From: Acaryochloris marina S15
GTDB lineage: Bacteria > Cyanobacteriota > Cyanobacteriia > Thermosynechococcales > Thermosynechococcaceae
Length of the DNA stretch: 32,000 bases
Assembly: GCF_018336915.1 (NCBI RefSeq)
Contig: NZ_CP064923.1
Span: forward strand, 1,110,001-1,142,000
Direction of reading: 5' to 3'
Shown one piece after another: positions 2,591-31,146 of this stretch. The first letter of the stretch is position 1, and each line of letters starts with the position of its first letter. Both the position numbers and the translations under genes were made by a program. A model generated the notes under the pieces. That model saw only the letters and a list, made by a program, of their open reading frames with translations, was not told the DNA's origin and made no database searches.

Positions 2591-3889
2591 TTGAATTGCA
2601 CCAAGCAATGGTCAACTTGTGGGAGCCTAACGTTGGCAGAGCAACTGGAAATCAATTGGGGGAATCAGGGTGCAGCTGAAGGTGACTCACAGTCCCAAAC
2701 TGCTGTGGGAGTAGAAGAGTCCATCGTTATGCCGCAGGAGTTGTCAGAGATGTCCCTTGAGATTTCCCCGGCTGAATTGGAGGATAATGCCACTACATCC
2801 TCTACTGATCACGAACAAGACGCCACTAGTCCTCAGCAAAGAATTCAGCTTTTAGAACAAGCCCTAGAACAGTGCCAGCTATATATTGACGAACTGAAGT
2901 CCAAATTAATGGATCAAGCGTTTTTGGAAGAGCAATTGGCCACGACGGAAGAGTTCTCTCATATTCAGCAACAGGCGGTCATCACCCTGCAAGATCAGCT
3001 CACAAACCGTGAGCAAATCCAGCAAGAGCTGGAAAACTTACGGCAAGCCAAGATCGACTTAACCAATCGTTTGTCGGATAAAGATACTAGCCTTCGCTTC
3101 CAAGAAGCAGAACGGGCTAAACTCCAAGACCAGTTTGCGGAAGAACGGACTGCATTAGAACGGTTACAAGATCAAGCCGAACGGCTGTCATTGCAAATCC
3201 AGTCTTCCCAAAAAACAGCGGTGCATGAAACCCAACAGCGGATCATTGCCCAAACCACGGCGGAGCGGCTGCGGACGCAGCTGCGGGAATGTGAAGCGGA
3301 TATCCAAACCTTAGAAGTGCAGCTGCAGCAAGCCCGGGAAAGCCATACCACTCAGCAAGATATTATTAAGTCTTTGCAAAATGCGGGTAAGTCTGATTCC
3401 CATAAAAATCAAGCGATTCAAAGCTTAAGTTCTAGCCTCTTAAAAGCCCAAAATACAATCGCTGACTTGGAGACCCAGCTGTCTAATCAATCGATTGTGC
3501 AAGCCCAGTTCCAACATTCCACCCAGGAATTTGCAGAACAGGCCCAATCTTTCCAAAAGCGCTCTGAGGAATTAGAGCAGCAAGTGGCGGAAATGCAGGA
3601 ACAAATTTTGCACCAGGCCCAGCAGGCCAGTGAGTATGAAACGGCCGTCCAGCACTGGAAAGATCGCTCCTTTACCGCAGAGCAAACCGTTGCCCAGATG
3701 AAGCAACTTCTTGAACATTTGTTGGCGGATCGCAAAGGTCCTGACCTACCCCTGCCTGCAAAATTAGATGATGCGATCGCAGCTCTGTCTCAAAGTTATT
3801 TATCTGAGGATACAGCCACTCATTCTCGCAAAAACCTCAAGCTTGATTTGCCTGCCTTGTTACACCGATGGCGTCACACCAAAACTTGA
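2591..3889 (+). CDS. Q/E/L-rich coiled-coil protein, function unknown
   Basis: 432-aa ORF with long heptad-like stretches (QQRIQLLEQALEQCQLYIDELKSKL, LQDQFAEERTALERLQDQAERLSLQIQ). No TM segment or catalytic motif. Start is ambiguous: TTG 2591 or ATG 2729 (MPQELSEM). Confidence 0.6.
   Translation: MNCTKQWSTCGSLTLAEQLEINWGNQGAAEGDSQSQTAVGVEESIVMPQELSEMSLEISPAELEDNATTSSTDHEQDATSPQQRIQLLEQALEQCQLYIDELKSKLMDQAFLEEQLATTEEFSHIQQQAVITLQDQLTNREQIQQELENLRQAKIDLTNRLSDKDTSLRFQEAERAKLQDQFAEERTALERLQDQAERLSLQIQSSQKTAVHETQQRIIAQTTAERLRTQLRECEADIQTLEVQLQQARESHTTQQDIIKSLQNAGKSDSHKNQAIQSLSSSLLKAQNTIADLETQLSNQSIVQAQFQHSTQEFAEQAQSFQKRSEELEQQVAEMQEQILHQAQQASEYETAVQHWKDRSFTAEQTVAQMKQLLEHLLADRKGPDLPLPAKLDDAIAALSQSYLSEDTATHSRKNLKLDLPALLHRWRHTKT
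3773..3780. repeat. HIP1 octamer GCGATCGC
   Basis: Exact palindromic octamer. Confidence 0.95.
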
Positions 3890-15322: not shown

Positions 15323-15817
15323 TTAGGGACAACCCAAAGAATCGCGAGTATCAATACCTGTAACAGGATTAACGCCACTAGCAGTCTCGCAGAGGATCTT
15401 GACTTGGTCCTTATCAACGATGGCAAAACTAAAGTCAGCACCGGTGACGGTGGCATCGCGAAGACTAGACTGCAATAGCATGGCTTCCGTCAAGATAGCT
15501 CCGCTAAGATCAGCTTCTGCAAAACTGCTCAGATAGGCCATACCACCCGTCATATCAGCGTTCTTTAGATTGGCACCCGTCAAGTCAACCCCATTGAAAA
15601 CGACAGCTGTGAGGTCGGTCTCGCTAAAATTAGCACCCGCCAATTGATTATTACTGAATTCAGCCTCTCGTAAGTCTTGCCCCGAAAAATCTTGCGTGAC
15701 AATGTCTGCATCATCAATCGCACGAGTGGCTGCAGAACTGGCGGCATGAGCAGGTAAAGGCAGTAATAAAAACAATGCTAAAAGCGTACATAAAATGGCG
15801 GTGCGAATCCGGAACAT
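15323..15817 (-). CDS. Pentapeptide-repeat protein with cleavable signal peptide (lumenal/periplasmic)
   Basis: Leader [19 protein letters not shown]. Tandem A(D/N)LxG-type pentapeptides follow ([33 protein letters not shown]...). Confidence 0.85.
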
Positions 15818-18546: not shown

Positions 18547-21237
18547 TTGACCCATTTGATATCTACCAACGTGACTATTTCTAGTACCCCCGATTTACGA
18601 AATGTGTTGACTAAAGACGTCAACAAAATAATCTTCGAAAATGGCTTAACAATCTTACTGAAGGAAGTGCATACTGCACCGGTTGTCAGTGTGCAAGTGT
18701 GGTATCGGGTCGGTTCACGCAACGAAGCCTCAGGACTCAATGGCATTACCCACCAGTTAGAACATCTGATGTTTAAGGGGACTCAATCCCGCCCAGTCCA
18801 ATTTGGCAAGCTCTTTAGTGCCCTGGGGAGTGCCTCCAATGCTTTTACCAGCTATGATATGACCGCCTATTACGGCACCGTGGGTAGCGACAAACTAGAA
18901 ACGTTGCTGATTCTAGAAGCCGATCGAATGCAGAATGTGGCCCTGACGGCTGAACATCTGGCCAGTGAAAAGCGAGTCGTCATTTCAGAGTTGCAAGGCT
19001 ACGAGAACAGTCCCGACTATCGCCTTAGTAAGGCCGTGATGCAGCAGGCTTTTCCAGATTCTAATTATGGATTATCGGTCGGGGGCAACAAGTCCGATGT
19101 GGAGAAGTTTACCCTGGCCCAAGTGCAGGAGTATTACCAGACCTATTATCAGCCGAGTAATGCCACGTTGGTGATCACGGGGGATTTTGACGAAGGCACT
19201 GTTCTAGAGCAAATTCAGACCTACTTTGGTCAGATTCCAAGCAGTCCTGTCGCAACGGCACCTGCACCGATGCCAGTGGTCACTCAAGCTGCCCCCTCAG
19301 CGCCGATTGTGCTGAAAGAACCCGGCAGTGCCCCTCTGCTGGATGCGGTCTATCCTATTCCTGATGCCCAGCATCCTGATATTCCGGCCTTAGAGATTTT
19401 GGATTCGATCCTGTCGGCTGGGCGCAATTCACGGTTTTATCCAGCTTTAATTGAATCTGGCTTAGCCACCAATGCCCATGCCTATGTTGCCTCCCTAATG
19501 GATGGGGGGTGGTACAACATTTCGGTGACTGCAGCGGTAGGTGAGCTATCAGAAATTGATCAGGTGGTAGAGGCAACCCTGGAGCAGCTGCGTAGCCAGC
19601 CCATTACGACTGAGGAGCTGGAACGGGCCAAAACTCAAGTCAAGGCCGGCTTTATTCTTAGTAATCGCGAAATCGAGAATCAGGCTAGCCAGTTGGCCTA
19701 TAACCAAGTTGTCACCAACGATCACTGCTTTAGCGATCGCTACCTGAGTGGGATTGAAGCGGTGACGCCTGCAGATGTGCAGCGAGTCGCTCAAACCTAT
19801 CTCACCCCCATCCAAAGAACCGTCGGCTTATTTGAGCCCACGCAATTGGAAGAGCAGCCCATGACGGCAGGCATCCCTGCAACCCAAACGGCCGAAAACT
19901 TTACCCCTAGCGAACCGGTCGATCCGGCTCAGGTGGCAAAATATCTGCCTGACTTGGCGACCTCCGCTGGCTCAGATACCCAATCTTTACCCGAGCGGTG
20001 GGTTTTAGACAATGGTTTGACGGTGCTGTTGCTGGAGGACCACAGTACGCCCACAGTTACACTCAGTGGGCATATTCGGGCGGGTAATGAGTGGGATTAT
20101 CTGACATTAGGTGGAGTTGCCACCATGACGGCAGATAATTTGATGAGCGGCACCACTAGCAAAGATGATCTAGCCATTGCCAAAGTCTTGGAAGATCGTG
20201 GGGCAAGTTTAGATTTTCTCTCCCTGCGAGAAGGCGTCGATGTGTCTGGATATGCCTTGTCTCCTGATCTTCTCGTGGTGTTAGAGACTTTAGGGGATGT
20301 CTTGCAGAACGCGACCTTCCCCCAGCAGCAGTTGGAATTATCTCGTCAGCGGATGCTCACCCACTTGCAGCTCGAACTAGATGATCCGGGAGCGTTAGCT
20401 CGACGGACCTTTCAACAAAAAATCTATACCCAAGACCACCCCTTTCATGGGTTCCCCACGGCCAATAGTCTGAAGAACATCAGTCGAGAGGGAATTTTGC
20501 GGTTCTATGAACAGCATTATCACCCCGACAATATGATTTTGACTTTGGTGGGAGATTTTGAGGTAGCGGAGTTGCGATCGCAACTCAACCACACCCTAGG
20601 CCAATGGCAACAGTCCCAGGACTCCATCCAGCTAGACTTCCCCGAACCCCAGCTGCCTCAAACGATTCAGCGGGTCAACGCTCCTTTGCCGGGCAAGACT
20701 CAAGTGGTGACCTATATGGGCTATCCCGGCATTGAACGCCACCATTCCCTCTACTATGCGGCCATGCTGCTGAACCAGATTATTGGGGGCGATACCCTAT
20801 CGAGTCGTTTAGGGACTGAAATTCGTGATCGCCAAGGACTCACCTATGGCATCTATAGCTACTTTGCCGCTGGACTCCATGCAGGCCCCTTTGCTGTACA
20901 GATGCAAACATCACCCGAAGATACCCAAACGGCTATTTCCAGTACCCTAGCCTTACTCAAACAAGTGAAATCAGGAGGAATTACTCAGTCCGAGTTAGAA
21001 ACGGCCCAGCGATCTATCCTCAACAGTTACCCTGTTGATCTGTCTGATCCCGATATTTTGGCCCAACGGTTTTTGATGAATGAAGTCCTGGGCTTACCCA
21101 TCGAAGACATCCGTCACCTGCCCCAAAGGATAGGTGCTGTAACCATGGCCGAGATCAATCAAGCCATTGAAGCGTTTATCCATCCTGACCGAGTGGTCAT
21201 CGTTTCCGCTGGCCCCGTGGATGCTGTCCGAAGTTAG
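18547..21237 (+). CDS. M16 (pitrilysin/insulinase) family zinc peptidase, with active and inactive modules fused in one chain
   Basis: Inverted zinc motif HQLEHLMFKG in the first half. The second half has the M16 fold pattern (LDNGLTVLLLEDHSTPTV) but no HxxEH. There is no ATG before the conserved core; starts at TTG 18547 (alternatives TTG 18556, GTG 18571). Confidence 0.85.
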   Translation: MTHLISTNVTISSTPDLRNVLTKDVNKIIFENGLTILLKEVHTAPVVSVQVWYRVGSRNEASGLNGITHQLEHLMFKGTQSRPVQFGKLFSALGSASNAFTSYDMTAYYGTVGSDKLETLLILEADRMQNVALTAEHLASEKRVVISELQGYENSPDYRLSKAVMQQAFPDSNYGLSVGGNKSDVEKFTLAQVQEYYQTYYQPSNATLVITGDFDEGTVLEQIQTYFGQIPSSPVATAPAPMPVVTQAAPSAPIVLKEPGSAPLLDAVYPIPDAQHPDIPALEILDSILSAGRNSRFYPALIESGLATNAHAYVASLMDGGWYNISVTAAVGELSEIDQVVEATLEQLRSQPITTEELERAKTQVKAGFILSNREIENQASQLAYNQVVTNDHCFSDRYLSGIEAVTPADVQRVAQTYLTPIQRTVGLFEPTQLEEQPMTAGIPATQTAENFTPSEPVDPAQVAKYLPDLATSAGSDTQSLPERWVLDNGLTVLLLEDHSTPTVTLSGHIRAGNEWDYLTLGGVATMTADNLMSGTTSKDDLAIAKVLEDRGASLDFLSLREGVDVSGYALSPDLLVVLETLGDVLQNATFPQQQLELSRQRMLTHLQLELDDPGALARRTFQQKIYTQDHPFHGFPTANSLKNISREGILRFYEQHYHPDNMILTLVGDFEVAELRSQLNHTLGQWQQSQDSIQLDFPEPQLPQTIQRVNAPLPGKTQVVTYMGYPGIERHHSLYYAAMLLNQIIGGDTLSSRLGTEIRDRQGLTYGIYSYFAAGLHAGPFAVQMQTSPEDTQTAISSTLALLKQVKSGGITQSELETAQRSILNSYPVDLSDPDILAQRFLMNEVLGLPIEDIRHLPQRIGAVTMAEINQAIEAFIHPDRVVIVSAGPVDAVRS
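19733..19740. repeat. HIP1 octamer GCGATCGC
   Basis: Exact palindromic octamer. Confidence 0.95.
20574..20581. repeat. HIP1 octamer GCGATCGC
   Basis: Exact palindromic octamer. Confidence 0.95.
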
Positions 21238-23747
21238 CAATTGGGAGCAGAGGGTTGGAACGCATAATGTGATGGGCCTTGGCGCTGCGTTGTTAACACG
21301 GTGCGTCCCTGGTCATCCTGCTGCCAACCTTGAGCTTCCGTAATCTCCTGTACTGGAGTATCGGTGGGTAAAGTCGCGGTTAGTTCGGAGGGGGGAATGA
21401 CTTGAGATAAAGGCTCTGGATCTGTCCGCAGGTCTTGCCATACCGCTAAGGAAGAGAGAGAGCTATGGGGGCTAATGGGTAAACCACCCCGCCCTAAGCG
21501 TTTAAAGCGACTTTGATTCGCAAATTGCCGAGTTTGACATCCTCGAGCAATGGGTTGAGGAGACTCGACATCATCGGGTTGTTCCGCCAGATTTTCACTG
21601 GGGTCAGCATCTGGGGTGTTGAGGTCAACCATGCCATTGAGCTGAGGATTGTTTTGAGAAATCGCCGTAATCTCATTGAGATCAGTATTGCTTTCACTCA
21701 CCGCAATCCCAAAAAGACCCTGAGTCGTAATGGTGATTTGCCCTCCCGGTCCATTGAATGCATTTGCAGTAATATTGCTGTCGCCGTCTAAAGGGAGCGC
21801 CACAATAACATCAGCATTGAGGCTGATATTGCCACCGGCATCCAGCCCAAAAGCATTGGTAGTAATGTTGCTGCCATTGTTTAGGAACAATAGATTGGTA
21901 TCGATATTGAGATTGCCTGCGGGACTCGCCACCGCATTACTACTAATCTGACTTTGATTCTCTAGAAAAACTGAGTTAGCTGTTACTTTCAAGGAGCCGG
22001 TCTGGCCCTGAGCCACACTACTTAGCTGAATGATTCCCCCATCCTTAATCCTTAACTTACCTGTATCAATTGTGATATCACCAGAATCACCAGCGCCGAA
22101 GGTACCCGCATTAATTTGACTAGCAATCAGACCCGATCGACTTATCCCCAGAACTTCAACGGAGTGAGTCGTGCTGATTTGGATATCTCCCGCTTGCCCT
22201 AAGCCAAAAGTACTGGCCGTAATCACACCGCCATCACGGATAATCAGTTTATTAGCTCGAATAATGGTATCTAAAGCATTGTTCGAGCTAATAGATGCTG
22301 TAGACACATTACTCGTTGAAAATCCGCTTTTACTAGACCCTACAATTTCAACGGTGCTGGTTGCATTGAGGGTAATCATACCGCCGGGTCCAAAGTTTGA
22401 TCCCGCCGTCAGATTTGCGCCATCCCGTAAGGTTAGATCGCCCGTATTAATGGTGATATTGCCACTGGGGCCACTGTTGGGAATAAATGCACTACGAGCA
22501 TTAATTTGACTGGTACTGGTCTGGTCAATGAGGAAATTTCGAGTCACAGGTTCAGTAAAGGGAACCGCTTCCGGAAGGAATCCCAAGAGGATCGTTTCCC
22601 CTCCGACATCAATAGAACGAGCTGCAGTAATGGTAAGGTTCCCACCGGGGCCTAATCCATCGGTGGCGGCGGTGATCTTAGCGCCATCAGTAACCCGTAA
22701 CGTGCCAGTATTAATTTCAATCGCACTGGCCTGACCCGTCCCTATTGTGGTTGAGAGAATAGTCGTTGTTTGGGGTAGAAAAAAGCCTCTTTGGGCAATA
22801 AGGGGATCGATCGGACTATTCAGTGAAAGATTTCCCAAGACCTCTAAAGAAGTTGCAGCATTAACTGTAATACCACCACCATCAATCTCCCCCAAGGTAA
22901 CGGATTGCAATCGTCCTCCCTCAGCCAGGGTGATGCGATCGCCTTGAACATTAATCACGCCACCCCCAGGACCACTCGTGTCGACCGTGGCTAAATTGTC
23001 AACGCGAATATCTTGAAAGCGTTGGACACCGCTGTAGTTTAATCCCCTAGATGAAGGGTTCAACTGCACCTGTTGATTCGCATCAACGGCACCCAAGTCA
23101 ATCCGCCCCCCTGGAGCAGTTAGATTGCCCCTGACATTGACATCGCCCCCTAACAGGCTCAAGGTCTGCCCCGGCTGAACGTTGAGGTCAGACTGAACCG
23201 TAATCGTCCCCGGCTGTTGATTGAATGCCAACCCAAGGGGCCGGTTAATGGATAGCAACGGTGCAGACTGGGCTGTGGGGGTTGCGCTAAAAATATTGCC
23301 ATTCGAGAACAGGACACTATTGGCCGTCGTGGCTAAAAAAGAGCCCCCCACATTCAGTTGAGCATTGGGGCCAAACAAGATCCCCCTAGGGTTAATCAAG
23401 AATAAATTAGTGGCTCCATTGGCTCGAAGCACACCATCTAACGTCGATGCCTGCCCTCCCGTAATCCGGGCAAAAATATTGGTCAGAGCAGGATTCTGGT
23501 CAAAGTAGGCTGTTGTACCAGTGGGGAGATCAAACTGCCGAAAACTATGAAATAAGTTTTGTCCTGCCTGAGTCCCGCCCAGAATTCGTTGTAATGCGCC
23601 TTCTGAGCGGACTTCTGAATTGATCGGCAAAGTGGCATCAGGGCGAATTTGAGCTGATGCTGAAGACAGCAGCCCCATCCACCCTAGAGCACTGATAGTT
23701 GCCCACAGCAAAGCTTTATTGTGATTGGTTTGAGCTAGGTTTAACAA
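21234..23747 (-). CDS. Two-partner-secretion (TpsA) exoprotein: filamentous-hemagglutinin N-terminal (TPS) domain plus beta-helix repeats
   Basis: Signal peptide ALLWATISALGWMGLLSSASA. TPS-domain blocks QNLFHSFRQFDL, NIFARITGG and NLFLINPRGILFG. Repeated G-rich beta-helix units follow (GGNLTITAARSIDV, GNITINTGDLTLRDGANLTA, GDITIDTGKLRIKDGG, GQITITTQG). TTG start. Confidence 0.85.
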   Translation of the reverse strand: MLNLAQTNHNKALLWATISALGWMGLLSSASAQIRPDATLPINSEVRSEGALQRILGGTQAGQNLFHSFRQFDLPTGTTAYFDQNPALTNIFARITGGQASTLDGVLRANGATNLFLINPRGILFGPNAQLNVGGSFLATTANSVLFSNGNIFSATPTAQSAPLLSINRPLGLAFNQQPGTITVQSDLNVQPGQTLSLLGGDVNVRGNLTAPGGRIDLGAVDANQQVQLNPSSRGLNYSGVQRFQDIRVDNLATVDTSGPGGGVINVQGDRITLAEGGRLQSVTLGEIDGGGITVNAATSLEVLGNLSLNSPIDPLIAQRGFFLPQTTTILSTTIGTGQASAIEINTGTLRVTDGAKITAATDGLGPGGNLTITAARSIDVGGETILLGFLPEAVPFTEPVTRNFLIDQTSTSQINARSAFIPNSGPSGNITINTGDLTLRDGANLTAGSNFGPGGMITLNATSTVEIVGSSKSGFSTSNVSTASISSNNALDTIIRANKLIIRDGGVITASTFGLGQAGDIQISTTHSVEVLGISRSGLIASQINAGTFGAGDSGDITIDTGKLRIKDGGIIQLSSVAQGQTGSLKVTANSVFLENQSQISSNAVASPAGNLNIDTNLLFLNNGSNITTNAFGLDAGGNISLNADVIVALPLDGDSNITANAFNGPGGQITITTQGLFGIAVSESNTDLNEITAISQNNPQLNGMVDLNTPDADPSENLAEQPDDVESPQPIARGCQTRQFANQSRFKRLGRGGLPISPHSSLSSLAVWQDLRTDPEPLSQVIPPSELTATLPTDTPVQEITEAQGWQQDDQGRTVLTTQRQGPSHYAFQPSAPNC
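22935..22942. repeat. HIP1 octamer GCGATCGC
   Basis: Exact palindromic octamer. Confidence 0.95.
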
Positions 23748-23865
23748 GAAAAACTGTTTATTAAATGGAGCAGGTAAGAAATTAAGTCACCCACTAACTT
23801 ATCAAGAGATCGAAGGTTGTCACCAGTGTGATCCCCCTACACGTGGCCCACTAATTTGACCCAGT

Positions 23866-26800
23866 CTAAGCAATTGCATCGGGTAATTCTGCTCGATTAT
23901 AGAGAAAGTTGACCATCGCCTGAGAGCTATCCAAAAGCTCGGGGGTCTCTGCCAGGGTCTGTTTTAACTCTTCCGACACCACTTTCACATAGGTCTGGGG
24001 GATACTCTCTGGATTGCTAGATTTGATAATAATCAGTTGGCCCAGCAGAAGAACTCCATTTTCTACAGCTGCAATAATTTTTAACAGTGCCGCAAGGGCC
24101 TTTGCACTTTGGTGGAGTAATGGGGGTATTTCATCACCCTGCTGATGGGGCCAGTGACCACGATACAAGTCAACACCTGCTTGCATAATTTCAGCAAACT
24201 GCTGGGAGGAAAGTTGATCTGTGTCTTGATATTGAACATCCTGAACCAAGGTATTTTCCTCAGCTCGGATCACAATCGGATCATGATATCCACAGGCCGT
24301 CGCGTATTGTTCAATGCCGTGATGGACAGCTGTGGATACGCCAGTAGCATCAAAAATTCTCATCTTGAAGGTTTGCTTCGCACTCGCATCTGCACTGTCA
24401 TGAATCACGTGAGGGAACACCTCCTGTTCAAATAGATCCTGTATGCGAGTTTTTAGATTTTCAGGTTCCATTTGATCGAGTACTCCTTTGTAATCTTCCC
24501 GAACGTCATAGTCCGTCCGGGATGGGGGGGATTCAAGCTTACTCAGCCAGGCCGTATGCAGAGTTGGCCCAATATTTAACTCCGGGTGATTCAGACGATA
24601 CAGTGGCCCTTGACTCAGATGGGTGGCATCAAAGATCCATAGCTCGCTCACTTTAGGATATTCTGCATCATCTGTTTGAGAATAATCCGTTGCCACCACC
24701 ACACAGACAATATAGCCGTGGGTTGCACTGGGTGTACCATCCTCTCTGGGTACAAACTGAGGAGAGCTGGCATAGTAGCCCGGCGGAAAGGCGTAATAAT
24801 CTTCAATCTTGAGCTGAGGAGGAGTAGATGCCTGTCCATCTAGAGGGGACGTTTGACTGACTCGCAGTAGATTGGCCGGTCTGCCTTCCTTGGCAATTCG
24901 GTTGATTTGTTGATCGAGAACCTGAGGGTCTATTTGGTCTTTGTATAGATCGAGATGGTTAAGGGTGTGGTGGTTGGGCCAGGCACCGCCGCAATTCCAA
25001 TACACATCTGTCAAGTGGTTGGCTGTCTTTTCATTGAAGGCAAAGAAGGCCAGCAGCTGAAACTTATCGTCGTCTTCAATAATGGCTTTTTCGGATTGTC
25101 CCGTTGCCATATCTAAGGTCCAAGTTCCTAACTGATTCGGAGCCATACTGTTGGCTAAAACACCGGATCGCTGCTGCAGGGTTTTATTGATATCTTCCGG
25201 GCAAGGTTGCCCTGAGTTGGCTGTTTGAGAATAGTGACACACCGCCTCGTCAATTTTGTTGACAAATTCGGCTGGATCGAGACCTTTAATATGGCCTACA
25301 TGGAGAACCACTTGGTTAGCTGGATTTTCATAACTCGCCAGAAAATGGGCGGTTTCTGGTTGAAGACGAAAATGCTTGGCCTTCACTTTGTTGCCCCCTG
25401 GGCTGGAATCAGTAGACTCTAGGTCAGTCCGGGCAATAACGTACACATCGGTATAAGGAGTTTGGGCATAGTTGAGGAATGAAAATAAATCTTGAAAATC
25501 CTGGCGTAAGTCCCTTTTAATTCCTTTTTTGATCTGATCTGGACTTTGATCGGGTGAGTCAGTCGAGGTAGAAGTGGACTCAGGGTTTTCGGTCACTGTT
25601 TGTCTGGGACGGGCAACGAAGCTCACAACCCTGCGTAGGTTTTTCGCAAAATTTTGGGGATTGAATAAGCTGGGCAGTACATCGGCCACCACAAATTTAA
25701 AGCTGGAATCGGAAATAACGATGTAGTCTTTCGTCAAAGACATTTGATGAACGGACTGATAGATGGGAATTGAATGCCCCTTTTCCGTCACCACTTCCCA
25801 TTGATCTGATTTATCAATCTCTGTTTGCTCCCCCTGCCATCGATAGAGGAAGAGCCGATCGGTCCCTCCAACCTCCCAGAAACTCAAAATAGCCAGCAGA
25901 ATCCCTAGGAGCCAAAGCACGACATTGACTAACGCCAGCACAACATAGTCAAAGAAAGACGTTCGCGGGGTATTGGGATCTTCTCCCTCTAGCTTATTTA
26001 AGAATTTCAAAAGCCCTTTGAGGAAATAGGGCTGCAGTCTCGTGACTTGCATCATGCTGCCCATGGATTTAGTGCCATTGACCATATAAACGGCATCTTC
26101 ATGGTCGTCATATACGGGATGAGCCGATGACAGAATCATGGGAAACACCTGGGACAAAATCGGGAACCCAAAAAGCTTTTGCAGGGGCCTTGAAACCGCC
26201 GGCATATCAAAAATCGGTTTCCAATCTTTATTGAGACCGACGGGGGCAACCAATCCTAAGGAACAGGGGTCGACTTCGTAGGGCCGTCCGGCATCCCAAG
26301 TCACCAGCAATCGCTCGCTATCATTCTGTTTTGGCTTTAAGGGTAACCAGGCAGTATTGAGATAATTGCGGCCTCCCAATCCCATCGATAGACGCGTTAG
26401 GGCTGCATCCCGGAACGTAAGCTGCTGATAGTCTGACCACTGCTCTAGATATTTGGGGTTGGACTCCAAAGCCCAGTCTGCGTAGTAATCAGGGGTTTTG
26501 ATCAGGCGAGTCGCTAAATGGGCCCATCCCGGTTGCTGAGTGGTGGCACAAGGCTGCTCGGGGTGGGGGTTCTCTGATGTGATGGTTGAATGAACTGAGC
26601 TATGAAAATCTAAGCGATAGATCATGCCATCGCCAGAATAGATATGTTGCCAACCACCTTGGGTGGGTAAATAAATTTCAGTATCTTTAATTTTGTGGGA
26701 ATCAAAGGAGGCAGCCGTGCCAATCACAAACACATGGCCCTTCAAGGTTGTGGGGAGAGGCCCAGGAACGTCAGACTGGGGGGAATGGCTTTGCCAATAT

Positions 26801-27018
26801 TGAGGTTCCAGAAAGGCTGTACTACTGGGGTCTACTGGCAACTCCCCATCCTTCCGAGACAAAATCGTTAAACCCAGGGGCTGGTGATAATGCTCTTTGC
26901 GACTGACCGACAAGATCGCTTTGGGAAAAGATGGCCAGGTTTGAGATTCTGTTGAAGGTCCGCTCACTGTGATATTCCCTTGCACCGATAGGTTGTTGAC
27001 GCTGGCAATTCGAGTCAA
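23866..27018 (-). CDS. Carotenoid-cleavage-oxygenase (RPE65/CCO) family protein, greatly expanded (1050 aa)
   Basis: Blocks are collinear with cyanobacterial ACO: GDGMIYRLDF, NTAWL...ERLLVTWDAGRPYEVDP, SSAHPVYD (H300), SVHQMSLTKDYIV (H424), ETAHFLASYEN (H558), SELWIFDATHLSQGP...GPTLHTAWL (H821). There are large insertions and a C-terminal extension. No ATG in the first ~130 codons; TTG 27018. Confidence 0.8.
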   Translation of the reverse strand: MTRIASVNNLSVQGNITVSGPSTESQTWPSFPKAILSVSRKEHYHQPLGLTILSRKDGELPVDPSSTAFLEPQYWQSHSPQSDVPGPLPTTLKGHVFVIGTAASFDSHKIKDTEIYLPTQGGWQHIYSGDGMIYRLDFHSSVHSTITSENPHPEQPCATTQQPGWAHLATRLIKTPDYYADWALESNPKYLEQWSDYQQLTFRDAALTRLSMGLGGRNYLNTAWLPLKPKQNDSERLLVTWDAGRPYEVDPCSLGLVAPVGLNKDWKPIFDMPAVSRPLQKLFGFPILSQVFPMILSSAHPVYDDHEDAVYMVNGTKSMGSMMQVTRLQPYFLKGLLKFLNKLEGEDPNTPRTSFFDYVVLALVNVVLWLLGILLAILSFWEVGGTDRLFLYRWQGEQTEIDKSDQWEVVTEKGHSIPIYQSVHQMSLTKDYIVISDSSFKFVVADVLPSLFNPQNFAKNLRRVVSFVARPRQTVTENPESTSTSTDSPDQSPDQIKKGIKRDLRQDFQDLFSFLNYAQTPYTDVYVIARTDLESTDSSPGGNKVKAKHFRLQPETAHFLASYENPANQVVLHVGHIKGLDPAEFVNKIDEAVCHYSQTANSGQPCPEDINKTLQQRSGVLANSMAPNQLGTWTLDMATGQSEKAIIEDDDKFQLLAFFAFNEKTANHLTDVYWNCGGAWPNHHTLNHLDLYKDQIDPQVLDQQINRIAKEGRPANLLRVSQTSPLDGQASTPPQLKIEDYYAFPPGYYASSPQFVPREDGTPSATHGYIVCVVVATDYSQTDDAEYPKVSELWIFDATHLSQGPLYRLNHPELNIGPTLHTAWLSKLESPPSRTDYDVREDYKGVLDQMEPENLKTRIQDLFEQEVFPHVIHDSADASAKQTFKMRIFDATGVSTAVHHGIEQYATACGYHDPIVIRAEENTLVQDVQYQDTDQLSSQQFAEIMQAGVDLYRGHWPHQQGDEIPPLLHQSAKALAALLKIIAAVENGVLLLGQLIIIKSSNPESIPQTYVKVVSEELKQTLAETPELLDSSQAMVNFLYNRAELPDAIA

Positions 27019-29554: not shown

Positions 29555-30310
29555 TCATGACTGTTCAGTTTTTTTCAATTCTGAAATCAGCCAGCGGAAA
29601 GGAGCACCCGTCCCTTGGGGATGCAAGGTCACACTGGCTCCGAAAGAGATCAGCGGAATCGCAGAGGTGAACCCATGAGAGTTAATCTGATGACTGCGTA
29701 AATCCTGGACGAACGGTTGAAGCTGCTGCTTTAGCTGCCCCCGACTCAGCTCCGTTTGCAACAAATCAAACTTAGTCAGAATGACTGCCAACGGATAATT
29801 GGGACGATTCGCTTGGGATTGGGGCAGGAATTGCGCCAATTGGTGAAGCACCGATTTCACTTTCTGTTGGTAGGGACGATCATTGACGAAAGCTGGGGCA
29901 TCAATCAGCAAGCAGCAGGCATGGGAACTAAAGAGCAACAATTGGAAATCGGTATTATTGGGCTGGCAAAATTCTCCTGGTATATCCCACCAGTGCAAAT
30001 GGCAGCGCGTTTTGACACCGCATAGGGTTCGAGTCTTAACGCTGAAGTTAAAATCAGTCGCTTTTAACGTTGGCGGTGGATATTGGCGTGACTGGGTGAT
30101 GAAGTTCAACAGCTGATTCATCTTCTCGTGAGACTCAGCGTCTTGGCAGTCCAGCCATTCTTGATGTAATCGGGCTTTTTTACGATTGAAGTGGAGAGAG
30201 GTATAGCTCCCTGCTAGAAAAACGGTTTTCCCAGCTCCTCGAAACCCGATACTCAAGATGTTATGGGTGAGAGGAGGTTGCCTCGAAAAGAATTGAGCGA
30301 CACGCTGCAT
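29555..30310 (-). CDS. Small stand-alone Ras/Arf-like P-loop GTPase (divergent)
   Basis: G1 GFRGAGKT (30224-30247), G3 WWDIPGE, Walker-B-like LLIDAP, G4 variant TKFD and G5-like TSAI. ATG 30310 lies 8 nt after the upstream SDR stop. The ORF track's TTG 30349 would overlap that gene by 31 nt. Confidence 0.65.
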   Translation of the reverse strand: MQRVAQFFSRQPPLTHNILSIGFRGAGKTVFLAGSYTSLHFNRKKARLHQEWLDCQDAESHEKMNQLLNFITQSRQYPPPTLKATDFNFSVKTRTLCGVKTRCHLHWWDIPGEFCQPNNTDFQLLLFSSHACCLLIDAPAFVNDRPYQQKVKSVLHQLAQFLPQSQANRPNYPLAVILTKFDLLQTELSRGQLKQQLQPFVQDLRSHQINSHGFTSAIPLISFGASVTLHPQGTGAPFRWLISELKKTEQS

Positions 30311-30318
30311 TGTTGGGG

Positions 30319-31146
30319 CTAGATTAGTTCTGAAAATAAAGTGTTCCAATCAATGGTGCTAGGTCGAGCCCCCTCACTCATTATTTCAAAAACCTTGCCA
30401 ACTGTGTGGGAATTCTGTAAACAGGCGACACAGGCAGTCGCCAAATCAATCCGACTGGTTTCTCCTGAGAGCTGATCTCCCGTGCCAACGACAATACCTA
30501 ACTGACTTTCCGTTTTGGCTTTCAGCAGCGTATTCAAATCGTAGGAGGTATAGGGACCATCGATTAGTCGACCCGGACGCACAATCGTATAGGGCAAGCC
30601 TGATTGACGGAGTGCTGTTTCGCCCACCAGCTTGGCATCCAACACGCCAAAGGTATTGAGAATACTGAAGGGCAGTTTATCTTTGCGCTCAATGCCACAA
30701 GCAGAGACGAGCAGAAACCGCTTTAAATCCTGGGGAGCAGCATCCACCAGATTTTGCCCCCCCACGGCATCCACCTTTTCAGGGCTGTTATCCGCTTGCG
30801 CTCGACAATAGCTCGGCTTGGCATATCGCTTAAACCATTCCCACCGAGTTGAAACTTCTCGAAATTCCCACCGGGCTGAGGGAAAGGCAGTGCTGCCAGT
30901 GCAGGAAATAATATGGGTCACACCGGGCATCGCTGCTGGTAATGTGTCGGCCTTTCGGGTATCGCCCACCACAATCTCAACTTGATCGGCAAACATCTGT
31001 CGGGCTTTGTCGGCATTGCGGGCAAGAATGCGCACCTTGATGTTTTGGGCGAGGAGCTCTCCCACCGTCAATTGCCCCACCCCCCCTGTGGCTCCTACCA
31101 CTAAGACCAGATCAGACTCAGGATTTAATTCACCAGAATGGGACAT
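30319..31146 (-). CDS. Atypical SDR / NAD(P)H-binding (NmrA-like) family protein
   Basis: N-terminal Rossmann motif VVGATGGVGQLTVGELL. Other family-typical blocks: ISCTGS, RFLLVSACG, YTIVRPGRL. ATG 31146 is preferred over GTG 31164. Confidence 0.75.
   Translation of the reverse strand: MSHSGELNPESDLVLVVGATGGVGQLTVGELLAQNIKVRILARNADKARQMFADQVEIVVGDTRKADTLPAAMPGVTHIISCTGSTAFPSARWEFREVSTRWEWFKRYAKPSYCRAQADNSPEKVDAVGGQNLVDAAPQDLKRFLLVSACGIERKDKLPFSILNTFGVLDAKLVGETALRQSGLPYTIVRPGRLIDGPYTSYDLNTLLKAKTESQLGIVVGTGDQLSGETSRIDLATACVACLQNSHTVGKVFEIMSEGARPSTIDWNTLFSELI

What the first reader, a model, noticed from the sequence alone, without database searches (positions are those of the whole stretch)
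23866..27018. Giant (1050-aa) carotenoid-cleavage-oxygenase homolog with an intact 4-His iron site
Six sequence blocks line up in order with canonical CCO/RPE65 enzymes, which are typically ~480-550 aa. They include the four iron-ligand histidine contexts: SSAHP (H300), VHQMSLTKDY (H424), TAHFLASYEN (H558) and TLHTAWL (H821). This suggests the catalytic machinery is preserved. The extra ~500 aa come from five places. (1) A ~110-aa insertion between H300 and H424 that contains a hydrophobic helix. (2) An acidic S/T/P-rich linker (TENPESTSTSTDSPDQSPDQ, aa 476-496). (3) An insertion around aa 140-165. (4) Expansions between H558 and H821. (5) A ~220-aa C-terminal extension. I do not know of a characterised CCO with this architecture. 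The substrate (carotenoid, apocarotenoid, stilbenoid or other alkene) cannot be read from the sequence.
Basis: partly seen in the sequence, partly recalled or inferred. Interest (0 to 1): 0.7.

Follow-up and report, generated by a model that had tools for sequence, protein, structure and literature searches.

The report
Oversized cyanobacterial carotenoid-oxygenase homolog with partner gene
This Acaryochloris gene encodes a double-length relative of the iron enzymes that cut carotenoids; it belongs to a large, unstudied cyanobacterial branch that keeps the four iron-binding histidines, has changed the residues behind them, and nearly always sits beside either a secreted fibre-like protein or a giant sensor kinase.

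Summary
The ORF is real: minus strand, 23866-27018, 1050 aa from TTG. The probable start is the GTG at 26967, giving 1033 aa. PF03055 matches aa 84-825 (91 bits, cut-off 27). The AlphaFold model (pLDDT 82.5) matches a solved CCD1.

H300, H424, H558 and H821 are invariant in 121 family sequences. Three align exactly with canonical iron ligands; H558 is one column off. The second shell is non-canonical: Glu1 is Asp242, Glu3 is Ser752 (both 121/121), Glu2 is variable.

The size is mostly a family trait. 384 relatives, almost all cyanobacterial and mostly 670-800 aa, share the helical insertions. Only Acaryochloris adds a ~175-aa C-terminal module with no Pfam or fold match, otherwise found on pentapeptide-repeat proteins.

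New context: in 78 species loci the gene lies near a full-length TPS-domain exoprotein (29, including this window) or directly beside a giant kinase/AAA_16/GAF signalling protein (32), never both. ABA4-like membrane proteins are adjacent in 8 loci and fused in one.

Best reading: a membrane-associated, iron-dependent carotenoid or apocarotenoid cleaving oxygenase coupled to an envelope or signalling partner. The ortholog AM1_4340 has been public since 2008 but is uncharacterised. This is a new variant of a known kind.

The parts
23866..27018 (-). Maximal ORF of the long CCO homolog (1050 aa from TTG, stop codon included). The probable CDS is 23866-26967 (1033 aa).
26965..26967 (-). Probable true start codon, GTG (V18 of the maximal ORF). 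It matches the N-termini of the 1033-aa homologs.
26976..26981 (-). AAGGGA Shine-Dalgarno-like motif, 8 nt upstream of the GTG.
   Evidence: read directly from the sequence
24544..26769 (-). PF03055 (RPE65/CCO) propeller region, aa 84-825.
   Evidence: 91.1 bits. hhalign to canonical CCOs. AF2 model and Foldseek match to CCD1 9m3e (E = 4.7e-14).
26119..26121 (-). H300 codon, iron ligand 1. Aligns with canonical H169.
   Evidence: 121/121 conserved
25747..25749 (-). H424 codon, iron ligand 2. Aligns with canonical H220.
25345..25347 (-). H558 codon, presumed iron ligand 3. It is one alignment column away from canonical H284 but is the only His in the strand.
   Evidence: 121/121 conserved
24556..24558 (-). 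H821 codon, iron ligand 4. Aligns with canonical H476.
26530..26598 (-). Clade-specific extension of a beta-hairpin, aa 141-163. Absent from the shorter family members.
25861..26067 (-). Family-wide helical insertion between H1 and H2, aa 318-386. It comprises an amphipathic helix (325-343) and a hydrophobic helix (355-380), and is the probable membrane anchor.
25459..25698 (-). Second helical insertion between H2 and H3, aa 441-520. It contains the disordered acidic S/T/P linker (aa 476-496 = 25531-25593).
24397..24543 (-). Family-wide C-terminal helical tail, aa 826-874, lying beyond the canonical CCO end.
23869..24396 (-). Acaryochloris-specific C-terminal alpha/beta module, aa 875-1050. 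It has no Pfam, NCBIfam or fold match and is shared with the C-termini of pentapeptide-repeat proteins.
23748..23865 (-). 118-bp spacer between the CCO and the TPS gene. It contains no terminator-like or promoter-like site.
21234..23747 (-). [quoted passage not shown]

Best explanation
The ORF encodes a membrane-associated, mononuclear-iron alkene-cleaving oxygenase of the carotenoid cleavage oxygenase (CCO/RPE65, PF03055) superfamily. It belongs to a cyanobacteria-restricted 'long' clade.

**Shown.** It has the CCO propeller fold. The four iron-ligand histidines and the occluding Thr are strictly conserved. The family has its own second shell (Asp242, a variable Asp/Glu at position 663, Ser752). 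Two helical insertions are shared by the whole family. The C-terminal module is an addition made within Acaryochloris. The gene forms a pair with a TPS-domain exoprotein, and the two genes have diverged together.

**Inferred.**
- Fe(II) held by the four His activates O2 to cleave a C=C bond of a carotenoid, xanthophyll or apocarotenoid taken from the membrane.
- The H1-H2 insertion, whose helix is strongly hydrophobic in this clade, acts as an enlarged membrane anchor at the mouth of the substrate tunnel.
- The C-terminal module is a non-catalytic interaction or targeting domain.
- The product, or the enzyme itself, serves a cell-envelope or signalling function together with the co-inherited TPS protein. 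In other lineages a giant Ser/Thr-kinase/AAA_16/GAF-PAS protein takes the TPS protein's place.
For: **Superfamily and fold.** PF03055 scores 91 bits over aa 84-825. hhalign to canonical CCOs gives probability 98.9-99.7% over 450-476 columns. The AF2 model has pLDDT 82.5 and pTM 0.78. Foldseek finds CCD1 9m3e at E = 4.7e-14, TM 0.60 relative to the target.

**Active site.** H300, H424 and H821 align to canonical H1, H2 and H4, and T222 aligns to the occluding Thr. In 121 sequences the four His, D242 and S752 are each 121/121, and T222 is Thr 115 / Val 4 / Ile 2. That is the same Thr/Val/Ile set reported for the occluding residue in PMC12051055. Conservation this strict argues for a working metal site.

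**Carotenoid link.** An ABA4-like domain (PF14108) is fused to a family member (P0044). Separate ABA4-like ORFs lie upstream of the CCO in 8 of 78 loci, directly upstream in 6. ABA4 is a four-TM membrane protein needed for neoxanthin formation, in the steps that supply substrate to the CCO NCED (PMC4199509). CrtI/amine-oxidase-type FAD enzymes are adjacent in 5 loci.

**Not a stilbene-type enzyme.** The residue before the first second-shell carboxylate is Trp or Tyr, as in ACO's 'LALWE', and not the Lys of lignostilbene dioxygenases.

**Membrane.** The Kyte-Doolittle 19-residue average peaks at 2.92 in the helix at aa 355-380.

**Partner.** A full-length TPS ortholog is present in 29 of 78 loci, in two different arrangements. 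CCO and TPS identities correlate (Spearman rho = 0.70). The two A. marina paralog pairs have diverged equally (CCO 43%, TPS 41%). No terminator-like site lies in the 118-bp gap.
Against: - No enzymatic, expression or localisation data exist for any member.
- Ser752 replaces a second-sphere Glu that is invariant in my canonical set, and position 663 is non-acidic in 26% of the family. Catalysis may therefore be altered or lost.
- H558 is one column off the canonical H3 in every alignment.
- I could not inspect the model coordinates, so the convergence of the four His and the position of the insertions relative to the tunnel are not verified.
- The window itself has no ABA4-like or carotenoid-pathway gene.
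- A cytoplasmic or membrane enzyme paired with a secreted beta-helix protein has no known mechanistic precedent, and no TpsB transporter is nearby.
Confidence: 0.6

Rival explanations
1. It is an iron-containing CCO-fold protein that performs non-oxygenase chemistry, such as isomerisation or hydrolysis as in RPE65. Alternatively it acts as a carotenoid-binding or sensing scaffold, with the altered second shell reflecting a change of reaction.
For: An invariant Ser752 replaces the third second-sphere Glu, and position 663 is variable. The family is extremely divergent from all solved oxygenases: phmmer E-values are about 0.003-0.1 and only fragments align. Its neighbours are signalling or secreted proteins rather than aldehyde dehydrogenases, whereas the canonical plasmid-borne CCOs I fetched sit next to aldehyde dehydrogenases.
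Against: The four His, the occluding Thr/Val/Ile and Asp242 are conserved exactly as expected for an O2-activating five-coordinate CCO site. RPE65 itself keeps all three Glu (my own knowledge, not tested here), so loss of a Glu is not a signature of the isomerase.
Confidence: 0.15
2. It is a lignostilbene or other phenylpropanoid alkene dioxygenase, as some database names for relatives suggest.
For: UniRef names for relatives such as P0026, P0075 and P0104 read 'lignostilbene-alpha,beta-dioxygenase'. The best sequence matches of the C-terminal blade are LSD and NOV entries. T222 is Thr, as in the stilbenoid-cleaving clade.
Against: The NCBIfam LSD equivalogs score 23-24 bits against cut-offs of 650-800. 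The Lys in 'LALKE' of LSD-type enzymes is Trp or Tyr here. ACO also has Thr at the occluding site (my own knowledge). The ABA4-like fusion and adjacency points to carotenoids. A strongly hydrophobic anchor suits a membrane-embedded lipid substrate.
Confidence: 0.08
3. The CCO-TPS pair, and the CCO plus STAND-kinase pairs elsewhere, are components of a conflict, defence or contact-dependent system. The CCO-fold protein would be an effector or an immunity-like factor rather than a metabolic enzyme.
For: TPS exoproteins, CHAT proteases and AAA_16 STAND kinases with a CHASE2 sensor recur around family members. Proteins that share the C-terminal module lie in variable islands with STAND NTPases and toxin-antitoxin genes. 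Tandem duplications and fused double CCOs are common.
Against: PADLOC returns no hit for the CCO or the TPS protein. The window locus is syntenic with A. marina within housekeeping genes. The active site is under strict purifying selection rather than diversifying.
Confidence: 0.1
4. The 1050-aa ORF is an artefact: a frameshift or mis-assembly fusing a CCO gene to an unrelated downstream gene.
For: The C-terminal module occurs independently on other proteins. An Acaryochloris relative (L014, 880 aa) lacks it.
Against: The same full-length architecture occurs in the finished A. marina MBIC11017 genome, in CCMEE 5410, in two further Acaryochloris MAGs and in several Logan assemblies, at 59-89% identity. 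AF2 models the junction with ordered helices.
Confidence: 0.02

Closest known systems
Synechocystis apocarotenoid-15,15'-oxygenase (ACO/Diox1; PDB 2biw) and other canonical bacterial CCOs
   Same: PF03055 propeller. Four-His iron site. Occluding Thr. A 'LL..W[E/D]' motif before the first second-shell carboxylate. The 'FVPR' and 'LH..W' motifs of the last blade.
   Different: Sequence similarity is only fragmentary (E about 0.003-0.3). The protein is about 545 aa longer. Two helical insertions flank H2. The Glu150 equivalent is Asp and the Glu426 equivalent is Ser. It carries a C-terminal tail and an extra module, and its gene neighbourhood is different.
Plant CCD1 (Osmanthus fragrans; PDB 9m3e and 9m6z)
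   Same: Best structural match of the AlphaFold model: E = 4.7e-14, probability 1.0, TM 0.60 relative to the target.
   Different: 12-13% identity. TM relative to the query is only 0.33, because half of the query lies outside the shared fold.
Plant ABA4 plus NCED step of abscisic-acid biosynthesis
   Same: Pairing of an ABA4-like four-TM membrane protein with a CCO-family enzyme. In this family the two are fused (P0044) or adjacent in 8 loci (PMC4199509).
   Different: This window has no ABA4-like gene. Neoxanthin is not, to my knowledge, a typical cyanobacterial carotenoid. The long CCOs are not NCED orthologs.
Two-partner secretion TpsA exoproteins (FHA/ShlA type)
   Same: The partner protein has a signal peptide and a TPS domain matching PF05860 and TIGR01901.
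   Different: No TpsB transporter is encoded nearby. I found no report of a TpsA paired with a CCO-family gene.

Membership tests
Carotenoid cleavage oxygenase superfamily (PF03055, RPE65/CCO) | Match to the family HMM above the curated threshold, across the whole domain | tested here: met
   91.1 bits against a cut-off of 27; aa 84-825 cover profile positions 16-468 of 469.
Carotenoid cleavage oxygenase superfamily (PF03055, RPE65/CCO) | Four conserved iron-ligand histidines | tested here: met
   H300, H424 and H821 align exactly with canonical H1, H2 and H4. H558 is one column from H3. All four are 121/121 conserved. The metal-site geometry in the model could not be inspected.
Carotenoid cleavage oxygenase superfamily (PF03055, RPE65/CCO) | Three second-sphere carboxylates (Glu/Asp) hydrogen-bonded to the His ligands | tested here: not met
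   Position 1 is Asp242 (121/121), which is acceptable. Position 2 is Glu663 in this protein but Asp or Glu in only 90 of 121. Position 3 is Ser752 (121/121).
Carotenoid cleavage oxygenase superfamily (PF03055, RPE65/CCO) | Occluding Thr/Val/Ile that keeps the iron five-coordinate | tested here: met
   T222 aligns to the canonical 'ANT' Thr. The family shows Thr 115 / Val 4 / Ile 2.
Carotenoid cleavage oxygenase superfamily (PF03055, RPE65/CCO) | Beta-propeller fold of solved CCOs | tested here: met
   AF2 pLDDT 82.5. Foldseek finds CCD1 9m3e at E = 4.7e-14, TM 0.60 relative to the target. The blade count was not checked directly.
Carotenoid cleavage oxygenase superfamily (PF03055, RPE65/CCO) | O2-dependent cleavage of a conjugated C=C bond | not testable with these tools
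   Requires a biochemical assay.
Lignostilbene-alpha,beta-dioxygenase (NCBIfam NF053778 / NF053780) | Score above the equivalog cut-off | tested here: not met
   23.2 and 23.8 bits against cut-offs of 800 and 650; only aa 741-827 match.
Lignostilbene-alpha,beta-dioxygenase (NCBIfam NF053778 / NF053780) | Lys preceding the first second-shell Glu ('LALKE'), used to deprotonate the 4-hydroxyl of the stilbene (the role is from my own knowledge) | tested here: not met
   Position 241 is Trp 92 / Tyr 21 / other 8 of 121, never Lys.
Two-partner secretion system (for the CCO-TPS gene pair) | TpsA cargo with an N-terminal TPS domain | tested here: met
   PF05860 E = 4e-55 over aa 32-266; TIGR01901 87 bits; a signal-peptide-like N-terminus.
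Two-partner secretion system (for the CCO-TPS gene pair) | Cognate TpsB (POTRA/ShlB) transporter encoded alongside | tested here: not met
   None among the window ORFs scanned. No such family appears among the recurrent neighbours in 78 loci.

The most novel reading that the evidence does not exclude
The long CCOs are signal-generating enzymes of a cyanobacterial apocarotenoid signalling or envelope system that has not been described. They would cut a membrane carotenoid, delivered by ABA4-like proteins in some lineages, into a product that is then used in one of two ways. It is either sensed by the adjacent giant kinase/AAA_16/GAF-PAS protein, or handed to, or used to modify, the co-inherited secreted TPS beta-helix protein. 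In Acaryochloris the C-terminal module would dock the enzyme to a further partner.
Probability: 0.2. Interest if true: 0.8.

Novelty: new variant of a known kind. Interest (0 to 1): 0.55.

Why it matters
CCOs make retinal, abscisic-acid and strigolactone precursors and volatile apocarotenoids, yet bacterial members outside a few ~480-aa enzymes are barely explored.

- **An overlooked branch.** This finding exposes a branch with hundreds of species that the 2012 cyanobacterial survey largely missed. That survey lists only four ~480-aa CCDs for A. marina (PMC3299332).
- **A test of the enzymology.** The branch keeps the 4-His/occluding-Thr core but breaks the 'three second-sphere carboxylates' rule. 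That makes it a natural test of what those residues do.
- **A hint of biology.** Its mutually exclusive pairing with either secreted TPS proteins or giant GAF/PAS kinases, together with the ABA4-like fusions, points to apocarotenoid-based signalling or envelope biology in cyanobacteria. This can be tested directly in genetically tractable hosts.
- **An undescribed domain.** The C-terminal module is a domain with no existing family assignment.

Tried and rejected
- **Direct sequence searches against the PDB.** phmmer and family-profile searches aligned only fragments. Splicing out the insertions did not help.
- **Seeding a canonical CCO set with ACO fragments.** The search for homologous proteins returned only short partial proteins, so that search was wasted. 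I fetched plasmid-borne canonical CCOs instead.
- **C-terminal module.** No Pfam or NCBIfam match. The stand-alone AF2 model is mediocre (pLDDT 65.8), and Foldseek found nothing significant, only weak ferredoxin-like ACT, ABM and PII resemblances at E above 0.3. An enzymatic role was rejected as unsupported, because the conserved residues look structural.
- **Contexts of pentapeptide proteins carrying the module.** These were uninformative.
- **Defence-system reading.** No PADLOC hits.
- **Mis-assembly or gene fusion.** Rejected, because the architecture recurs in independent genomes.
- **Literature.** Searches for the long clade, for AM1_4340, AM1_2511 or Ava_2047, and for a CCO-TPS or CCO-STAND association found nothing relevant.
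- **One failed look-up.** P0098 was not on record for a context look-up.
Full report
**Observation.** The window carries an uninterrupted ORF at 23866-27018 on the minus strand, 1050 aa counted from a TTG. The closest homologs are 87-89% identical, 1033 aa long, and start 'MSGPSTESQ'. That start corresponds to a GTG at 26967-26965, preceded at 8 nt by AAGGGA, so the real product is probably 1033 aa. Database annotations disagree on this point: the A. marina MBIC11017 ortholog is given as 1048 aa and the CCMEE 5410 one as 1033 aa.

**Superfamily membership.** PF03055 matches as a single stretch, aa 84-825, covering profile positions 16-468 of 469 (E = 1.1e-25, 91 bits, cut-off 27). Direct sequence comparison with solved CCOs is marginal and fragmentary, so the protein is very divergent. 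I therefore built a canonical set from five plasmid-borne 479-520-aa CCO/LSD genes. That set shows the expected invariant four His and three Glu. I compared it with a 38-sequence alignment of the long family by profile-profile alignment, which gave probability 98.9-99.7% over 441-476 aligned columns. An AlphaFold2 model built on the family alignment is confident (mean pLDDT 82.5, pTM 0.78). The only low-confidence parts are the N-terminal 25 residues, the acidic linker at 476-488 and a short hinge at 877-880. Its only significant PDB matches are two CCD1 structures (E = 4.7e-14, TM 0.60 relative to the target).

**Active site.** Under three alignment settings the mapping to canonical positions was the same:
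- H300 aligns with H1, H424 with H2 and H821 with H4.
- T222 aligns with the 'ANT' threonine.
- D242 aligns with second-shell Glu1, E663 with Glu2 and S752 with Glu3.
- H558 is consistently one column away from H3. It is the only histidine in that strand.

Across 121 family sequences:
- The four His are each 121/121, as are D242 and S752.
- T222 is Thr 115 / Val 4 / Ile 2.
- Position 663 is Asp or Glu in 90 of 121.

PMC12051055 describes CCDs as 4-His enzymes in which three His hydrogen-bond to second-sphere Glu/Asp, and a Thr/Val/Ile occludes the sixth coordination site. The first shell and the occluding residue are therefore canonical and under strict purifying selection. The second shell, however, is family-specific, with an invariant Ser where canonical enzymes have Glu.

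**Where the extra length comes from.** Against the canonical spacing, and with the corrected start, the excess is about +114 aa before H1, +73 between H1 and H2, +70 between H2 and H3, +71 between H3 and H4, and +217 after H4.
- The H1-H2 insertion (aa 318-386) is modelled as an amphipathic helix followed by a long helix.
- The H2-H3 insertion (aa 441-510) is two helices joined by the disordered acidic S/T/P linker.
- Both insertions, and a ~45-aa C-terminal helical tail, are present throughout the family.
- In the Acaryochloris-type subclade the 355-380 helix is strongly hydrophobic, with a Kyte-Doolittle 19-residue average up to 2.9. In Nostocales and Oscillatoriales members it is merely amphipathic.
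- The insertion begins about 15-19 residues after H1. From my recollection of the RPE65 structure, that corresponds to one of the membrane-binding loops at the tunnel mouth. This placement is inference and was not tested.

**The family.** The protein is not a singleton.
- A search of 5.8 billion proteins returned 159 hits. The 120 listed all carry PF03055, the named ones are cyanobacterial, and most are 670-800 aa long.
- A scan of one genome per species found 384 relatives, almost all in cyanobacteria.
- Forms of 1033-1089 aa are confined to Acaryochloris. They include the type strain MBIC11017: AM1_4340, UniProt B0CDW7, 88% identical.
- That genome also has a 912-aa paralog, AM1_2511 (41% identical).
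- The 2012 survey of cyanobacterial CCDs lists four A. marina enzymes of 479-488 aa and neither long one. Its only long entry is a 765-aa A. variabilis protein (PMC3299332).
- I found no functional study of any member.

**C-terminal module (aa 875-1050).**
- It has no Pfam or NCBIfam match.
- An exhaustive profile search found 52 proteins (22 at E ≤ 1e-10). Apart from the CCO representative, the stronger full-length matches are proteins of about 300-550 aa that carry the module at their C-terminus.
- Eight of the ten scanned have pentapeptide repeats at the N-terminus; one has a GAF domain and one has no Pfam match.
- The module aligns over about 175 residues. Its conserved positions look structural (G, Y, L, A, K, P) and show no catalytic-looking pattern.
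- A stand-alone model has modest confidence (pLDDT 65.8) and an alpha/beta topology. Foldseek gives no significant match.
- Among the family loci it occurs only in the Acaryochloris giant forms. An 880-aa Acaryochloris relative lacks it.
- I read it as a mobile, non-catalytic interaction or targeting domain acquired within the genus.

**Conserved partners.** The gene immediately downstream on the same strand (21234-23747, after a 118-bp gap) encodes an 837-aa protein with a signal peptide and a TPS secretion domain (PF05860, TIGR01901). The gap contains no terminator-like or promoter-like site.
- The same CCO-then-TPS arrangement recurs around the A. marina paralog and in distant metagenome contigs whose other neighbours differ.
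- The TPS proteins align over their full length at 42-50% identity.
- In 78 species-representative loci, a full-length TPS ortholog lies within the fetched flanks in 29. It is co-directional downstream in 17 and divergent upstream in 12.
- CCO and TPS pairwise identities correlate (Spearman rho = 0.70, 276 pairs). The two pairs within A. marina have diverged equally (CCO 43%, TPS 41%), so the pair was duplicated or transferred as a unit.
- In 32 other loci the directly adjacent gene is a giant signalling protein. It is either Pkinase-AAA_16-GAF-PAS with a cyclase, SpoIIE or AAA_35 output, or cyclase-AAA_16-TPR.
- No locus has both partner types.
- CHAT-domain proteins and a CHASE2 histidine kinase also appear.
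- Tandem CCO pairs and fused double CCOs of about 1460-1540 aa are common.

**Substrate clue.** One member (P0044) carries an N-terminal ABA4-like domain, PF14108. Separate ABA4-like ORFs lie upstream of the CCO in eight further loci, directly upstream in six; six of the eight also have a divergent TPS gene. ABA4 is a four-TM membrane protein required for neoxanthin formation by an unknown mechanism. It is conserved from cyanobacteria to plants and acts in the steps that supply substrate to the CCO NCED (PMC4199509). CrtI/amine-oxidase-type FAD enzymes flank the CCO in five loci.

The LSD reading implied by some database names is not supported. The NCBIfam LSD equivalogs score 23-24 bits against cut-offs of 650-800. 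The Lys of the LSD 'LALKE' motif is Trp or Tyr here.

**Interpretation.** The best-supported reading is a membrane-associated Fe(II) oxygenase that cleaves a carotenoid, xanthophyll or apocarotenoid and is functionally coupled to a secreted TPS protein. In other lineages the partner is a giant sensor kinase.
- Shown: the fold, ligand conservation, the altered second shell, the insertions, the modular C-terminus, and partner linkage with co-divergence.
- Inferred: catalytic competence, substrate class, the membrane-anchor role of the insertion, the adaptor role of the C-terminal module, and any link between product and partner.

The rivals are a non-oxygenase or binding role, an LSD-type substrate, a conflict-system component (no PADLOC hit), and an assembly artefact (excluded by recurrence in independent genomes). 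They are weighed in the Rival explanations section.

**Rest of the window.** The remaining genes are housekeeping, with no TpsB transporter and no carotenoid-pathway gene. They include transhydrogenase, an M16 peptidase, a rhomboid protease, HcyBio, IGPS and RodZ. The locus is syntenic with Acaryochloris sp. CCMEE 5410.

**Novelty and score.** The gene itself is already annotated generically in public genomes, so it is not a new discovery as such. The following appear to be undescribed in the literature I could search:
- the long clade as a whole
- its Ser-for-Glu second shell
- the C-terminal module
- the mutually exclusive TPS or kinase partnership
- the ABA4-like linkage

I rate it a new variant of a known kind, with interest 0.55.

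Noticed in passing
L069, L079, L085, L087 (single ORFs of about 1410-1480 aa); P0019 (1540 aa): Some Nostocales and other filamentous cyanobacteria encode two complete long-CCO modules fused in one polypeptide. Many other loci carry tandem pairs (for example L004, L009, L054, L057, L058, L076).
   Followed up: partly
window 21234-21237: The TPS gene (minus strand) and the convergent M16 peptidase gene (18547-21237, plus strand) overlap by 4 bp at their 3' ends.
   Followed up: no
window 26965-27018; AM1_4340 in L011: Start-codon annotation is inconsistent between Acaryochloris genomes: 1048 aa in MBIC11017 against 1033 aa in CCMEE 5410. The 1033-aa GTG start has the better Shine-Dalgarno-like motif.
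   Followed up: partly
window 15323-15817 (minus strand); L027 9382-9909; L039 5257-5787: A small pentapeptide-repeat protein lies 8 kb from the CCO in the window, and similar ones lie directly downstream of CCOs in two other loci. They lack the C-terminal module that the giant CCO shares with other pentapeptide-repeat proteins, so the coincidence is unexplained.
   Followed up: partly
window 29555-30349 (minus strand): A 264-aa ORF matches Double-GTPase 2 (PF19993), a poorly characterised family. The same gene is present at the syntenic position in Acaryochloris sp. CCMEE 5410 (L001).
   Followed up: no
window 2591-3889 (plus strand): A 432-aa ORF with no Pfam match at E ≤ 1e-4.
   Followed up: no
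L061 (JBLNEP010000240.1): A contig binned as an Actinomycetota MAG carries a typical cyanobacterial long CCO followed by a large signalling gene. It is probably mis-binned.
   Followed up: no
L033, L052, L055, L071, L081: An FAD-dependent oxidoreductase of about 600 aa (Amino_oxidase/CrtI-type, with a partial MCRA match) sits directly beside the long CCO in five mostly Pleurocapsales-type loci.
   Followed up: partly
L090 2316-3789; L092 2047-3444: The canonical plasmid-borne CCO/LSD genes fetched as references are followed by aldehyde dehydrogenase genes, a catabolic pairing. None of the long-family loci I examined shows it.
   Followed up: no
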